Assembly: GCF_055900595.2 (NCBI RefSeq)
Contig: NZ_CM148325.1
Reading direction: 5' to 3' (one strand)
DNA: 64,000 nt
The position numbers are program-made. Below, in pieces: positions 40,218 through 46,200 of the stretch. The first letter of the stretch is position 1. Every line of letters begins with the position of its first letter.

Positions 40218-43200
40218 TGACCACTACATTCTGACGGTAAACTCAGGAATTTGTCGGTAAGAGCCTGATTTACTGAGACAGAATCTTTGCCCCTGAGTCT
40301 AAGGATGATCGTATAACGTGATTTTCGGTCTACAAGTGTGGCTATATGAGAGTTTTTTGTACCTAAGACTAAATCGCCCTCCCAATGCCCCAGAGAGCGT
40401 CTGTTATCGATATTTCGGGAACGTTCGTGAATTGGTGTTCCGTTCACTATGTTAATCGTACCTCTTTCGCCTTTGCGGGTATGACGCCTGCCATGGCGAA
40501 GGCTATGCGACCGTCGCAGATGCTGTATATTCAGGTGGTGTAGCGCTTCACGGCTACGAAAGTACAGCGTTTTATAAATTGTCTCAGGTGATATTCGCAG
40601 CGTTTTTTGACGTGGTTTTGTTCGCCTTAACCATCCTGATATTTGCTCTGGAGACCATTTCATCTCCAGCTTTTCCAGAACAAGCTTTCGCAATGGTAAA
40701 TTTTGATCCAGTAAGCACGGTTTTGGCCTTTTCGCCATTCTGTTGGCTCGGTTATTAGCATCAACAGCTTTGTAATAGCGTCTGCCCCGATTACGCTGAA
40801 CTTCACGTGAGATCGTCGAAGGACTGCGATTCAGCGCAGTAGCTATCGCACGAATGCTCATTTTGGCTGACAAACCAGCTCGTATCTCCTCGCGCTCAGA
40901 CAGTGTCAGGTGAGCTACAGCCCGCTTACGCTCATGGGGTTTTATGCCGCCAGTATCCCTTAACATAGTGAAGATCGTTCCGGGTTTTGAACCCAGGATA
41001 TTCGCTATTTCACTGAAGCCTGTTCCGTTCTTCCATAGTTCAAAAACAGAGGCTTTTTCCTCTGCTGTAAATGTTCGTCTCATTCAAAAAACCTCTGCAA
41101 CCCCATGTTTTCACATAACTGTTGCGTTGACCAATTGAATCTACAGTTGCTTTTTTTAATATATCTCGCTCAAGGCGAGCTTCATTTAACGCCTTACGCA
41201 GTTGCAGAATTTTAGATTCCAGTTCAGCCACCGTGCGGGAACCAAGAGTACCGAGCCCTTTTCTGGCGGCGGTAACCCATTGTCCTAAAGTGCCTTCAGG
41301 AAGAGATAATCGGGAAGCGCCTTCACTGATCGAAAGTTGATTTTCAAGAACCGTTCTGACAGCTTCGGCTTTGAACTCTTTAGAGTAACGTTGGGTTTTT
41401 CTGCTCATTATTAGCTCCTTCTGATGCCATTCTATTTCAGGAAGGAGTGTCCGTTAAACTCAGGCTACCTCATCCGTCAGAGCTGCATGATGGCGGCGTG
41501 AGAACCTTAGGCATCCCGACAGTGGTGGATAGGCCTATCCAGCAGGCTATAGCTATAGCGCAACATTTAAGCGCCATCGTGGACAAAAGCTTCTCAGACT
41601 CTAGGCACGGTTTCCGGCTGGGACGCAACGTATGGCAGGCAGTGCAATAGGCACAGCATTATATACGGGGCAGCAAACGGTGGGTGGTGGATATAAATCT
41701 GGAGAAGTTCTTCGACCGTGTGGATCACAGACTCCTGATGACGCGTCTGGCCAGTACGATAAAGGACAGGCGGGTGCTGAGGCTGATACGCCGCTACTTG
41801 AAAGAGGAAATAGTCCGGGACGGGCAAAGAGAGAAATGGCAGGAAGGCATGCCGCAGGGCGGCCATTGCTGGATGATATCAGGACGTCGTAGAGAACAAA
41901 CTGAAGCAGAAAGTGAATGAGAAGAAGAGCGCGGTGGCGCGCCCGTGGGAGCAGAAGTTCCTCGGGTACAGTATGACATGGCACAAACAGTTGAAGCTGA
42001 AAATAGCCCTGACGAGTGTGAACAGGCTGAAGGAGAAAGTGCGCAGTCTGACCACGGGAAACCGGAGCAAATCAGTGAAAGCGACAATCAATGCCCTGAC
42101 GCCAGTGCTGCGTGAACCTGTTTAAGATTCTGTGTAAATGCCTTTTCTCAGAAGTGACCGTCCTGGCGGTCACCGAACTCGATAATAAAGCGGCTGAACC
42201 TGTACATAGATTTGTGTAATCGCCTGATTTTGATATGTTCAATCCAGCATCATATGAAGGTTAATTTATGGATGAAAAACAGTTACAGGCTCTGGCTAAC
42301 GAACTGGCCAAAAACCTCAAAACCTCTGAAGACCTCAGTCAGTTTGATCGGCTGCTGAAAAAGCTCAGCGTTGAAGCCGCTCTCAATGCTGAGATGACAC
42401 ACCATCTTGGGTATGAGAAAAATCAGCCCAGACTAGGAGCTAACTCCCGCAACGGTTATTCCACAAAGACCGTTATCACAGGCGACGGTCCACTGGAACT
42501 GCGTACTCCGCGCGATCGTGACGGTACCTTCGAACCACAACTGGTAAAGAAAAATCAGACCCGTATTACCGGGATGGATAACCAGATCCTCTCGTTGTAT
42601 GCCAAAGGGATGACCACTCGTGAGATAGCTGCTGCGTTCAAAGAACTGTATGACGCAGATGTTTCACCGGCGCTGACAGCCGAAGCTGGCAGGCTAACTG
42701 GCCGAATCTTGCCACGTTCTTCGCTTATCCAACGGACATCCGCAAAGTGATCTATACGACGAATGCCATCGAGTCGCTAAACAGCGTGATCCGCCATGCG
42801 ATCAAAAAGCGTAAAGTGTTCCCGACAGACGACTCGGTGAAAAAAGTGGTGTGGCTGGCAATCCAGTCTGCGTCCCAGAAATGGACGATTCCGTTGAAGG
42901 ACTGGCGAATGGCAACGAGCCGCTTGGAACTGTAAATATCACATAGTTTTTGCGCCAAAATACCGAAGACAGGTGTTCTACAGAGAGAAGCGTAGAGCAA
43001 TAGGCTGTATTTTGAGGAAGCTGTGTGAGTGGAAAAGTGTACAGATTCTGGAAGCTGAATACTGTGCAAATCCCGCCCCAAATGAGCGCATACGGAAGTG
43101 TTCTGCGCTGGTTTTGCCGTACTCCTTCATGGGCCGGTTATTCATATCCGTCAGTAAATCCCAAAAACGTACATTCAACGTAAGCATCCGGTGAACTCGC

Positions 43201-46200
43201 ATGGCGCGATCACCGGCGTTATGGCAGGGCGTATTCAGTCCGCCGGATGGCGGTAAGGCAGCAGTTCATCCAGCCGGGACGCCGGCCATGACGGCAGCTT
43301 CTCCAGCACATCACGCAGCCAGACTACTGGCTCCAGACCGTTCAGCCTCGCCGTGTGCAGCAGCGTCAGCAGCTCCGCCAGCCGCTCTCCTCCCCGCAGC
43401 GAACCCGCGAACAGCCATGACTTCCGCCCCTGCGCCACCGGACGCATCATCTGCTCACTCCGGTTGTTGTCCAGCGGTACCCGTCCGTCATTCAGGTATG
43501 TTTCCAGCGCCGGCCAACGCTTCAGGGCATACGTCACCGCACCGTGCAGCCTGCCACCCGGCGCGCTCGTCTTTTCCGTCGCCCTCAGCCAGCTGTGGAA
43601 CGCCTCCATCTGCGGCTTCGCGTACCGCCGTCGCCATCGCCATTTCTGCTCTGCCGGACGCTGCCGGATGGTCTGCTCCAGGATATACAGCGCCCGTATC
43701 TGTTTCAGCGCCTCCTTCGCCCCCGGACTGCCGTTCATTCTGTACAGCTCCATGAACTTTCTGCGCACGTGCGCCATGCACCCCGCCTCACAGATACCCG
43801 GTGCCGCCGGAGGGGCCCCTTCCTGCCCGTCACGGAACAGCGCCCGGTAACCGGCATAACCGTCAGCCACCAGAGTCCCCGACCACCCGCTCAGCATCTC
43901 ACACGCATACTGCCCCGCACGCCCCGGACGGCAGTCGTACACCACGATGTCCCGGGCACTGCCCGCCGCACTCACGTATGCTCACAGGTACCCTTTCCGG
44001 ACTTTCCCTTTCCGCGTATCCAGTATCTGCAGCGGCGTCTCGTCCGCCTGCAGCACCGGTTGCCTGAGCAGGTCACGTTTCAGGGCTGCCGCCAGCGGCG
44101 ACAGCACCGCCGCCGTCGGCCCGAACCAGTCCGTCAGCGTGCTTTCCGGCAACTGTACCCCTTCACGGGCGTATATCTTCTGCTGCCGCTGCAGTGACAG
44201 GTGATCCAGCACCTTCGCGGTCACCACCTGCGCCAGCAGACCCGGACCCGGCTGCCCTTTGTCGATGACTGCCGGCGGCAGCACGGCACTGTGCACCGTG
44301 TCGCAGCACGGGCAACTGTACTGCGGTCTCACGGTCCGTTTCACCACGAAGTGTGCCGGTACATACTCCAGCACCTCATTCACCTCGTCGCGGATATGTC
44401 GCATTTCACTTCCGCAGTCCGGACAGGTGCTACCGGTCTCAGGCATGAGTACGGTTTCCTGTCGCGGCAGGTGTGCCGGCAGGGGGTGACGGGCCGGCTT
44501 CTTCCCGGTTTTCTCCTTCACCGGCAGCAGGTCGCTCAGTTGCCGGGTGATATCAGCCTCATCGCTGGCCGCGTCCTCATCTGCCAGTGGTTTCTGGCTG
44601 GCCGGGAGGCGCTCGCTTTTACGCCCGAAGCGCCACTGGTGGGCCAGCTTCAGGGCCTCCTCCAGCTCCCGGATGCGCTGTTCATATGCGGTTTTTTCTG
44701 CCTGCATGGCGGCATTAAGGTCATGGATACGCTGTTCCAGCGTGGTGGTGACGGTATTCAGGTTATGGAGGCGCTGTTCCAGCGTGGTGTTGACGGTATT
44801 CAGGTTATGAAGGCGCTGCTCATATTCGCATGCCTGTGCCGTCAGCAGCGCTGTTGCCAGACGGCGCAGTTCATCGGGGTTTTGTGTGGTGTTCAGGATG
44901 TCATCTGTCATGCAGCCATGATGACAGAGGCGGGCGGGAACATCCTGATAAGAAGCTGCCCGTATTATGATTCTGGCACAGGAGGTTATTCAGTCCACCT
45001 CTGCAGGGGGCTGGCAGAGAGACGCAGCCAGTCAACGCCGGCGGTAAGCCAGGCGAACTGTTCCACCGTGAGCGACCAGGTGGTGTCGCCGTCGCGGGGC
45101 CAGCGGAAGGCGCCCTGGTGCAGGCGGCGGGTGCAGAGCCAGACGCCGTGGCGGTCCCACATCAGGAGTTTCATGCGGGTGCGTTTTTTCCCGGTGAAGA
45201 GGAAGGCTTCGCCTTCCCGGGGCGGATGCCCGGCGGCCTGAGTGGCGAGTCGCGTCAGGGAGTCGATGCCGGCGCGTATGTCAGCAGGCTCGCGGACGAG
45301 CCAGAGGGAATGAGGGCTCAGCACAGGTTAAGCTCCCGGATGATGGCGGCGATGCCGGCCGGAGAGGCGGTGACGCAGGCGCACTGAAGTTTCAGGGTGG
45401 CAGTGTCACTGACGGAGAGGGTGACCGGCAGGATGGCTGGTCTGTTATCAGCCGGAGCGGGGCCACGGGCGTCGTCAGCGGAGAAGGCGCGGCAGAGATG
45501 CCAGAAAGTTTTGTTGTTGATGCCGTGTTGCCGGGCATACGCGGTCCGGGACATGCCGCTGACGCGCCAGGCGTCGTAGTGCTGGCGTCGCTGCGCCGGG
45601 GTCATTTTTTTGCCATCAGTTTTCTCTCTTTTGCATATAAAGGAAGAACCTGCAGAATGGCGTGGTTCACAACGGCCGGCAATGCGAGTTCACCGGATGC
45701 TTACCATTCAACGTCCTGAGTGCATGGAAGGTTTCATTATGGATACGGGCAAGCAGCTATCTTTCAACGGTGAAAACACCGTTTTTTGTGCTTTTGGTTT
45801 GCGTGGGTGAACCGGTATGATAACCGTACCATAGTACTCTGCAGGGCCTGGTTACTGTCGTGGATGACAGGAACATAGCGCTGCGCTTCTTAGTTTATCG
45901 GGGCTGAGCAGCTTCGGTACGTTGCTCAAGTAGGTCAGGCAGTGGCCGTGAGTATTTAACCATGTCATCATACCCTGACCTTCACATGCTTCAGCGTAGG
46001 TATAGTAAGATGCCCCCCCCATGGCCACGGAAATTGCCACGCGTATCCCCGGCACAATACCAGAAAATGAAAGAAGCGGAGGGAGGATAGACTTGTTACG
46101 CCTTCTGCTCTACATAAAAATTTTCCGGAAGCTGTCAGAAAAGAACTAATGACCTTAGGTACATTCATGGAAACGGTAAAGATTCTCTTACATAACTATT

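What the first reader, a model, noticed from the sequence alone, without database searches (positions are those of the whole stretch)
43172..45712. Intact-looking IS66-family element carrying a single nonsense mutation in its transposase
The element has matching 23-bp terminal inverted repeats and a perfect 8-bp duplication CATTCAAC, so it inserted as a unit. Its transposase is interrupted by one in-frame TGA exactly where the conserved GYLW motif requires tryptophan (TGG to TGA). The element is therefore immobile unless complemented in trans or the stop is read through.
Basis: seen in the sequence. Interest (0 to 1): 0.35.

Follow-up and report, generated by a model that had tools for sequence, protein, structure and literature searches.

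The report
Dead IS66 insertion sequence, transposase pseudogene
This is an ordinary IS66-family insertion sequence in an E. coli chromosomal island whose transposase gene was killed by a Trp-to-stop mutation; it has stayed at one site in 147 sequenced genomes, is slowly decaying, and public annotation already flags it as a pseudogene.

Summary
A 2,525-bp IS66-family element (43180-45704) has perfect 23-bp terminal inverted repeats and a perfect 8-bp target duplication, CATTCAAC. It carries tnpA, tnpB and tnpC on the minus strand. tnpC has one in-frame TGA (43982-43984) and no frameshift.

The nearest intact relative, on Salmonella IncC plasmid pSB109 (97.3% identical), has TGG at this codon. 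Trp is invariant there in 103 of 103 full-length homologs. The stop lies between the first two invariant catalytic Asp residues.

Removing the element and one duplication copy restores a gap-free alignment to IS21 istA, so it inserted as a unit into an IS21 relic.

Among 5,426 complete E. coli genomes, 147 carry this copy. Each has it once, on the chromosome, at the same junction, and all have TGA. I found no transposed copy and no intact close relative in E. coli.

The stop is not the only damage. This lineage shows 18 nonsynonymous against 9 synonymous changes, versus 3 against 12 in the intact lineage. One change, P239S, hits an invariant proline. Sister copies add a second stop, a frameshift and a 12-bp deletion.

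RefSeq/PGAP already labels this tnpC "internal stop". The finding is real, routine and already known.

The parts
43172..43179 (.). Target-site duplication, copy 1 (CATTCAAC)
   Evidence: Identical to 45705-45712. It aligns to CATTCAGC of IS21 istA in the reconstructed empty site.
43180..43202 (+). Terminal inverted repeat at the tnpC end (IRR), GTAAGCATCCGGTGAACTCGCAT
   Evidence: Perfect 23 of 23 reverse-complement match to 45682-45704. These are the only two sites in the window at up to 5 mismatches.
43235..44911 (-). tnpC pseudogene: 558 codons, IS66-family DDE transposase with one internal TGA
   Evidence: Pfam LZ_Tnp_IS66, zf-IS66, DDE_Tnp_IS66 (split) and DDE_Tnp_IS66_C. With W restored it scores 448 bits against NCBIfam NF033517 (cut-off 180). 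PGAP labels it 'internal stop'.
43982..43984 (-). In-frame TGA replacing the invariant Trp (codon 310) of the G-Y/R-L-W-x-Y motif
   Evidence: TGG in the 97.3%-identical intact element L005. W in 103 of 103 homologs. The codon lies between invariant D290 and D350. TGA is present in all 147 E. coli genomes that carry the copy.
44195..44197 (-). Codon 239, TCA (Ser): a derived replacement of an invariant Pro (CCA)
   Evidence: Polarised with outgroup L010. Pro is found in 103 of 103 homologs.
44710..44818 (-). 42-bp tandem repeat, 2.6 copies, in the N-terminal coiled-coil part of tnpC (LEQRLHNLNTVxTT)
   Evidence: Tandem Repeats Finder. Intact relative L005 lacks one unit (44730-44771). Intact homolog P0003 (89% identical) has the same extra unit, so it is a tolerated in-frame variant.
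44986..45324 (-). tnpB (IS66 Orf2-type accessory protein, 112 aa), ORF intact
   Evidence: Pfam TnpB_IS66 at 108 bits. NCBIfam NF033819 at 103.9 bits, cut-off 50. Three derived nonsynonymous and no synonymous changes.
45318..45605 (-). tnpA (95 aa accessory protein), ORF intact; overlaps the tnpB start by 7 nt
   Evidence: NCBIfam NF047593 IS66 TnpA at 42.1 bits, cut-off 28. PGAP names it WP_000186597.1.
45682..45704 (-). Terminal inverted repeat at the tnpA end (IRL)
   Evidence: Exact reverse complement of 43180-43202.
45705..45712 (.). Target-site duplication, copy 2 (CATTCAAC)
43088..43171 (-). Target, left part: IS21-family istA relic interrupted by the insertion
   Evidence: After removing the element and one duplication copy, the flanks align to intact istA genes at about 78% identity, in one piece and with no gap at the junction.
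45713..46016 (-). Target, right part: IS21-family istA relic
   Evidence: PGAP annotates an 'IS21 family transposase, frameshifted, incomplete' here.

Best explanation
This is a defective, fixed copy of an IS66-family insertion sequence. An active element with the tnpA-tnpB-tnpC layout transposed once into an IS21 istA relic. That relic lies in the IS-rich island next to the dsdA/csc sucrose locus of an E. coli lineage, and the insertion made the family-typical 8-bp duplication. A G-to-A transition then changed the invariant Trp codon 310 of TnpC (TGG) to TGA.

Translation now ends after 309 residues. That fragment keeps the leucine-zipper and zinc-finger DNA-binding parts and the first catalytic Asp. 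It lacks the second Asp and the rest of the catalytic core, so no functional transposase is made and the element cannot move.

Since then the whole element has evolved close to neutrally and has been inherited vertically or with the island.

Shown: the anatomy, the ancestral TGG, the invariance of W, the single shared locus, and relaxed constraint. Inferred: loss of catalytic activity, and the order of events (insertion first, stop later).
For: - Anatomy and family assignment.
- Ancestral TGG in the intact 97.3%-identical element on Salmonella plasmid pSB109. That element has its own 8-bp duplication, GTAATTTC.
- W310 invariant in 103 of 103 homologs, with the stop between invariant D290 and D350.
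- Empty site colinear with IS21 istA.
- The 61-mer around the stop and the 120-bp flank/element junction are each found in exactly 147 of 5,426 genomes, once per genome, always on the chromosome. No other locus carries this copy.
- No close intact copy in E. coli. Identity bands are 99% or more, or 80-90% only.
- Relaxed constraint on this lineage: tnpC 14 nonsynonymous to 8 synonymous, against 3 to 10 on the intact lineage (Fisher p=0.035). Across all three genes it is 18 to 9 against 3 to 12 (p=0.009).
- P239S at an invariant Pro.
- Sister copies add Q487* (43453), a 1-bp deletion (43392), a 12-bp deletion (44465-44476) and more missense changes.
- PGAP labels the gene 'internal stop'.
Against: - UGA is the leakiest stop codon in E. 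coli. It is read by Trp-tRNATrp at about 2% at 37 C and 4% at 25 C in K-12 reporters (PMC10570021). Read-through here would insert the original residue, so a trace of full-length protein cannot be excluded.
- tnpA and tnpB ORFs are still open.
- Counts of derived changes are small. The outgroup is itself a broken copy at 83% identity, so the polarisation is approximate.
- No experiment on activity was possible.
Confidence: 0.93

Rival explanations
1. Leaky expression. The UGA is read through by Trp-tRNATrp at a low rate, giving small amounts of TnpC with the native Trp, so the element stays weakly mobile.
For: UGA read-through by Trp-tRNATrp runs at about 2-4% in E. coli K-12 reporters (PMC10570021). 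The codon replaced is Trp, so read-through restores the original residue. There is no frameshift in this copy.
Against: All 147 genomes have one copy at one junction and no new insertions. Nonsynonymous changes are in excess downstream of the stop: 11 nonsynonymous to 4 synonymous. P239S hits an invariant Pro. Sister copies acquired a second stop and a frameshift without any sign of counter-selection. No RNA family matched around the stop at E up to 1. No homolog carries a stop here.
Confidence: 0.04
2. Domesticated fragment. The 309-aa N-terminal product (leucine zipper plus zinc finger) is kept as a DNA-binding regulator or inhibitor, as truncated transposases are in some other IS families.
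For: The 309-aa ORF is open and is called as a protein in many assemblies (cluster P0014, 205 members). Derived changes upstream of the stop run 2 nonsynonymous to 4 synonymous, against 11 to 4 downstream.
Against: The upstream/downstream contrast is not significant (p=0.15). One of the two upstream changes is P239S at an invariant Pro. Polymorphism within E. coli in the upstream part is 3 nonsynonymous to 1 synonymous, plus a 12-bp deletion. No cognate active element exists in these genomes for it to regulate.
Confidence: 0.02
3. Mobilisation in trans. An intact IS66-family transposase elsewhere in the cell acts on the still-perfect inverted repeats.
For: The inverted repeats are perfect. Strain FY10, the one strain checked for this, carries an intact ISEc23 15 kb from its copy.
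Against: The window holds no other IS66-family gene or matching inverted repeat. ISEc23 TnpC is only 38% identical, and its ends share only the terminal GTAAGC. No close intact copy exists in 5,426 E. coli genomes. No second locus is seen in 147 genomes.
Confidence: 0.01
4. Artefact: the TGA is a sequencing or assembly error.
For: None.
Against: The 61-mer is identical in 146 of 147 independent complete assemblies, and the one variant differs elsewhere.
Confidence: 0.002

Closest known systems
Unnamed IS66-family element on Salmonella enterica IncC plasmid pSB109 (NZ_CP101857.1, 103501-105985; TnpC WP_111995052.1)
   Same: 97.3% nucleotide identity over the whole element. It has the same tnpA-tnpB-tnpC layout, 23-bp inverted repeats and an 8-bp duplication.
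   Different: Its tnpC is intact, with TGG at the codon, Pro at 239 and 544 aa. It lacks one 42-bp repeat unit. Its inverted repeats differ at two positions, changed symmetrically at both ends (GG instead of CT). It has one more A in the poly-A run at the tnpA start. It sits on a plasmid.
The same pseudogene in RefSeq E. coli genomes (for example FY10 locus tag MYL51_RS17540; YZLc4-1 N4697_RS07285)
   Same: It is the same insertion at the same junction, 99.3-100% identical, with the same TGA. It is already annotated 'IS66 family transposase, internal stop'.
   Different: Copies differ by a few later lesions: Q487*, a 1-bp deletion and a 12-bp deletion. The surrounding island is rearranged relative to this window.
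IS66 / IS679 (prototype IS66-family elements; Machida 1984, Han et al. 2001, cited in PMC6778807)
   Same: Three ORFs tnpA, tnpB and tnpC, with the DDE transposase in tnpC. Inverted repeats start with GTAAGC and the target duplication is 8 bp (for the layout and the 8 bp).
   Different: The sequence is divergent, and this copy has a nonsense mutation. That all three ORFs are needed for IS679 transposition is from my own memory of Han et al. 2001, which could not be opened.
ISEc23 (IS66 family; intact copy in strain FY10)
   Same: Same family and same gene order, and its ends begin with GTAAGCG.
   Different: TnpC is only 38% identical over 417 aa, and the inverted repeats differ beyond the first 6-7 bases. 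It is not present in this window.

Membership tests
IS66 family of insertion sequences | Three consecutive genes tnpA, tnpB and tnpC on one strand, with tnpA and tnpB overlapping | tested here: met
   45605-45318, 45324-44986 and 44911-43235, all on the minus strand, with a 7-nt tnpA/tnpB overlap.
IS66 family of insertion sequences | TnpC with the IS66-type DDE domain plus zinc-finger and leucine-zipper regions | tested here: met
   Pfam PF13007, PF13005, PF03050 and PF13817 all score above their cut-offs. NCBIfam NF033517 scores 448 bits against a cut-off of 180 with W restored.
IS66 family of insertion sequences | IS66 Orf2-type TnpB and IS66-type TnpA accessory proteins | tested here: met
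   PF05717 at 108 bits. NF033819 at 103.9 bits (cut-off 50). NF047593 at 42.1 bits (cut-off 28).
IS66 family of insertion sequences | Terminal inverted repeats of about 20-30 bp beginning with GTAAGC | tested here: met
   Perfect 23-bp inverted repeats, GTAAGCATCC.... ISEc23 ends also start with GTAAGCG. That this start is general to the family is from my own knowledge.
IS66 family of insertion sequences | 8-bp target-site duplication | tested here: met
   CATTCAAC on both sides. The empty site is colinear with istA. The 8-bp figure for IS66 is stated in PMC6778807.
IS66 family of insertion sequences | Uninterrupted transposase reading frame (an autonomous element) | tested here: not met
   TGA at codon 310. 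This is a defective member, not an autonomous one.
IS66 family of insertion sequences | Demonstrated transposition | not testable with these tools
   Indirect evidence only: one locus in 147 genomes.
Programmed stop-codon recoding (read-through or selenocysteine) | The stop codon is conserved at this position in relatives | tested here: not met
   W in 103 of 103 homologs, and TGG in the nearest relative.
Programmed stop-codon recoding (read-through or selenocysteine) | A recoding RNA element next to the stop | tested here: not met
   No Rfam family matched at E up to 1 in 42900-46000. No dedicated fold of the downstream sequence was run.
Programmed stop-codon recoding (read-through or selenocysteine) | Purifying selection on the sequence downstream of the stop | tested here: not met
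   Derived changes downstream run 11 nonsynonymous to 4 synonymous. Sister copies carry Q487* and a frameshift.

The most novel reading that the evidence does not exclude
The W-to-UGA change may be a natural throttle rather than a full knockout. Because Trp-tRNATrp is the tRNA that misreads UGA, read-through would rebuild the native protein at a few percent of normal level. That could leave a near-silent but still mobilisable element, or a retained 309-aa DNA-binding fragment.
Probability: 0.04. Interest if true: 0.3.

Novelty: already known. Interest (0 to 1): 0.05.

Why it matters
It matters little beyond correct annotation. IS copies inactivated by point mutation are common in E. coli islands, and this one is already labelled a pseudogene in RefSeq.

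It has modest practical uses. The fixed insertion, its junction and the later lesions (Q487*, the 1-bp and 12-bp deletions) could serve as lineage markers for the strains that carry this dsdA/csc-linked island. The pair formed by this copy and the intact pSB109 element is also a clean example of how fast an IS decays once its transposase is lost.

Tried and rejected
1. From reading translations, I first guessed that the insertion target was an IS200-type tnpA relic. Pfam supports IS200 (Y1_Tnp) only for the stretch further left. The junction itself aligns to IS21 istA, so I dropped the guess.
2. No unoccupied site exists in complete E. coli genomes: no record covered 80% or more of the reconstructed site. 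I used the colinearity with istA instead.
3. I assumed the window was strain FY10 because the element is 100% identical. That was wrong: only 40229-48682 is colinear and the rest is inverted or rearranged. No complete genome covers more than 78% of 30001-55000.
4. A second 309-aa homolog (P0075, 76% identical) raised the idea of a recurrent stop at the same codon. Its sequence shows a different, unrelated truncation.
5. No solved structure of an IS66 TnpC was found by sequence. No Rfam match was found.
6. The paper search on 'IS66 family' plus TnpC and TnpB returned nothing. Han et al. 2001 (PMC95320) is not held.
7. An ISfinder name for the element could not be determined with these tools.
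Full report
**Observation**

The region was read directly. CATTCAAC occurs at 43172-43179 and again at 45705-45712. Just inside these copies, GTAAGCATCCGGTGAACTCGCAT (43180-43202) is matched 23 of 23 by its reverse complement at 45682-45704, and identity collapses after position 23. No other site in the 64-kb window resembles this inverted repeat at up to 5 mismatches.

Three genes lie on the minus strand:
- tnpA, 45605-45318, 95 aa
- tnpB, 45324-44986, 112 aa
- tnpC, 44911-43235, 558 codons

tnpC reads through without a frameshift but has one TGA at 43984-43982...RKGKVRKGYL*AYVSAAG....

**Family assignment**

- The N-terminal 309 aa of TnpC match Pfam LZ_Tnp_IS66, zf-IS66 and DDE_Tnp_IS66 profile positions 1-92.
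- The C-terminal 248 aa match DDE_Tnp_IS66 positions 95-283 and DDE_Tnp_IS66_C. One domain is therefore cut exactly at the stop.
- With W restored, the protein scores 448 bits against NCBIfam NF033517 (cut-off 180).
- TnpB and TnpA also pass their IS66 models.
- The three-gene layout and the 8-bp duplication are the family's hallmarks (PMC6778807).

**Is the stop a mutation of Trp?**

Yes. The closest intact relative is an element on Salmonella IncC plasmid pSB109. It is 97.3% identical, has its own 8-bp duplication (GTAATTTC) and encodes a 544-aa TnpC. Within the stop codon, the only difference is at window position 43982, T here versus C there on the + strand. That is TGA versus TGG on the coding strand.

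I aligned 103 full-length homologs of 41-94% identity, taken from a search of 5.8 billion proteins. The column is W in all 103, within a G-[YR]-L-W-x-Y motif. The flanking invariant Asp residues are D290 (A/G-D-E/D-T) and D350 (D-G-Y). The truncated product therefore has the DNA-binding parts and the first catalytic Asp only. This catalytic assignment is inferred from invariance and from general knowledge of DDE enzymes. No solved structure exists by sequence search.

**Did it insert as a unit?**

No unoccupied site exists in complete E. coli genomes. However, joining the flanks with one copy of CATTCAAC gives a sequence that aligns in one piece to intact IS21-family istA genes in 360 records, at about 78% identity. 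There is no gap at or near the junction, and the duplication aligns to CATTCAGC. The element therefore landed in an IS21 relic and made a normal 8-bp duplication.

**Population picture**

- The element is found at 99.3% identity or more in about 150 of 5,426 complete E. coli genomes, with a median of one place per genome.
- A 61-mer centred on the stop occurs in 147 genomes, once each, always on the chromosome. It is identical in 146. The exception (strain E9) differs at 44003, not in the stop.
- A 120-bp probe spanning flank and element (43120-43239) is found in the same number, 147 genomes, once each.
- Every copy of this allele therefore sits at one locus, and none has moved.
- E. coli has no close intact copy. 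The other matches are 80-90% identical.
- The window holds no other IS66 gene.
- Strain FY10 has an intact ISEc23 nearby. Its TnpC is only 38% identical and its ends share only GTAAGC.

**Decay**

I used a third, 83%-identical element (L010) as an outgroup to assign differences to lineages.

| Comparison | This lineage (non:syn) | Intact pSB109 lineage (non:syn) | Fisher p |
|---|---|---|---|
| tnpC | 14:8 | 3:10 | 0.035 |
| All three genes | 18:9 | 3:12 | 0.009 |

One derived change, P239S (44195-44197), replaces a proline that is invariant in 103 of 103 homologs.

Sister copies in other strains add further lesions:
- a second stop, Q487*, at 43453
- a 1-bp deletion at 43392
- an in-frame 12-bp deletion at 44465-44476
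- more missense changes; among the eight polymorphisms seen in the sister copies fetched, 7 are nonsynonymous and 1 is synonymous

This is the signature of a dead gene, not of a recoded one. No RNA family matches near the stop.

**Mechanism and rivals**

The best-supported account is simple. There was one transposition into the IS21 relic, then a G-to-A nonsense mutation at the invariant Trp. The transposase was lost, and the element was inherited passively and drifted neutrally.

The main caveat is that UGA is misread by Trp-tRNATrp at about 2-4% in K-12 reporters (PMC10570021). That would rebuild the native residue, so a trace of full-length protein is conceivable. Three things argue against any meaningful activity: no copy at a second locus, the relaxed constraint downstream of the stop, and P239S.

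A retained N-terminal regulator is not supported. The upstream versus downstream contrast is not significant (p=0.15), and the upstream part also carries damaging variation.

Sequencing error is excluded by 147 independent assemblies.

**Comparison with what is known**

The element is a defective member of the IS66 family. Every structural criterion tested is met, except for an open transposase frame. RefSeq/PGAP already annotates exactly this gene as 'IS66 family transposase, internal stop' in every strain I opened. The finding is correct but already known, and of low interest.

**Context**

The element lies in an IS-dense island beside dsdA and the csc sucrose genes, with an autotransporter gene nearby. 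The island also contains IS30, IS3, IS1, IS256-like, IS200-like, IS4 and IS21 fragments and group II introns. Its arrangement in this window differs from every complete genome searched.

Noticed in passing
window 44710-44818: A 42-bp tandem repeat (2.6 copies) encodes LEQRLHNLNTVxTT in the N-terminal coiled-coil of TnpC. The intact pSB109 relative has one unit fewer, while an intact 89%-identical homolog (P0003) has the same extra unit. Copy number in this heptad-like region therefore varies among working transposases.
   Followed up: partly
window 43196-43197 and 45687-45688; L005 1517-1518 and its right end: The two inverted repeats of this element and of the pSB109 element differ at the same two positions (CT versus GG). 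Both ends changed symmetrically, so each element keeps perfect 23-bp repeats. This suggests that the two ends co-evolve, or that one is copied from the other.
   Followed up: no
window 45598-45605: The poly-A run at the tnpA start has 7 A here and 8 A in pSB109. With 7 A, an upstream ATG gives only the mini-ORF MAKK*, which overlaps the tnpA ATG. With 8 A, that ATG is in frame with tnpA. The true TnpA start is uncertain, and PGAP picks a much longer TTG-initiated ORF in pSB109.
   Followed up: partly
window 43453, 43392, 44465-44476 (variants seen in loci L002, L003, L004): Other E. coli strains carry the same insertion with extra lesions: a second stop (Q487*, CAG to TAG), a 1-bp deletion and an in-frame 12-bp deletion. 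These could be used as lineage markers.
   Followed up: partly
window 42268-43110: Immediately to the left of the element there is a frameshifted IS256-like transposase gene (42268-42935) and a short IS200-type (Y1_Tnp) tnpA fragment (from about 42943). Several IS families are stacked within 1 kb.
   Followed up: partly
window 40229-64000 versus strain FY10 (L008/L009): Only 40229-48682 is colinear with FY10. Segments 48683-52278 and 53608-64000 match FY10 in inverted orientation, and no complete E. coli genome covers more than 78% of 30001-55000. The island appears to have been rearranged between repeated IS30, IS3 and group II intron copies.
   Followed up: partly
window about 28833-35503: By ORF size and order, compared with strain JX21CE8, these look like dsdA and the csc sucrose-utilisation genes (regulator, cscA, kinase, transporter). 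The IS-rich island therefore abuts the sucrose locus.
   Followed up: no
locus L010 (E. coli plasmid pMTY9812_NA1, AP026505.1): An 83%-identical IS66-family element on an IncF plasmid also has its tnpC split into two annotated ORFs. This is an independent break at a different position.
   Followed up: no
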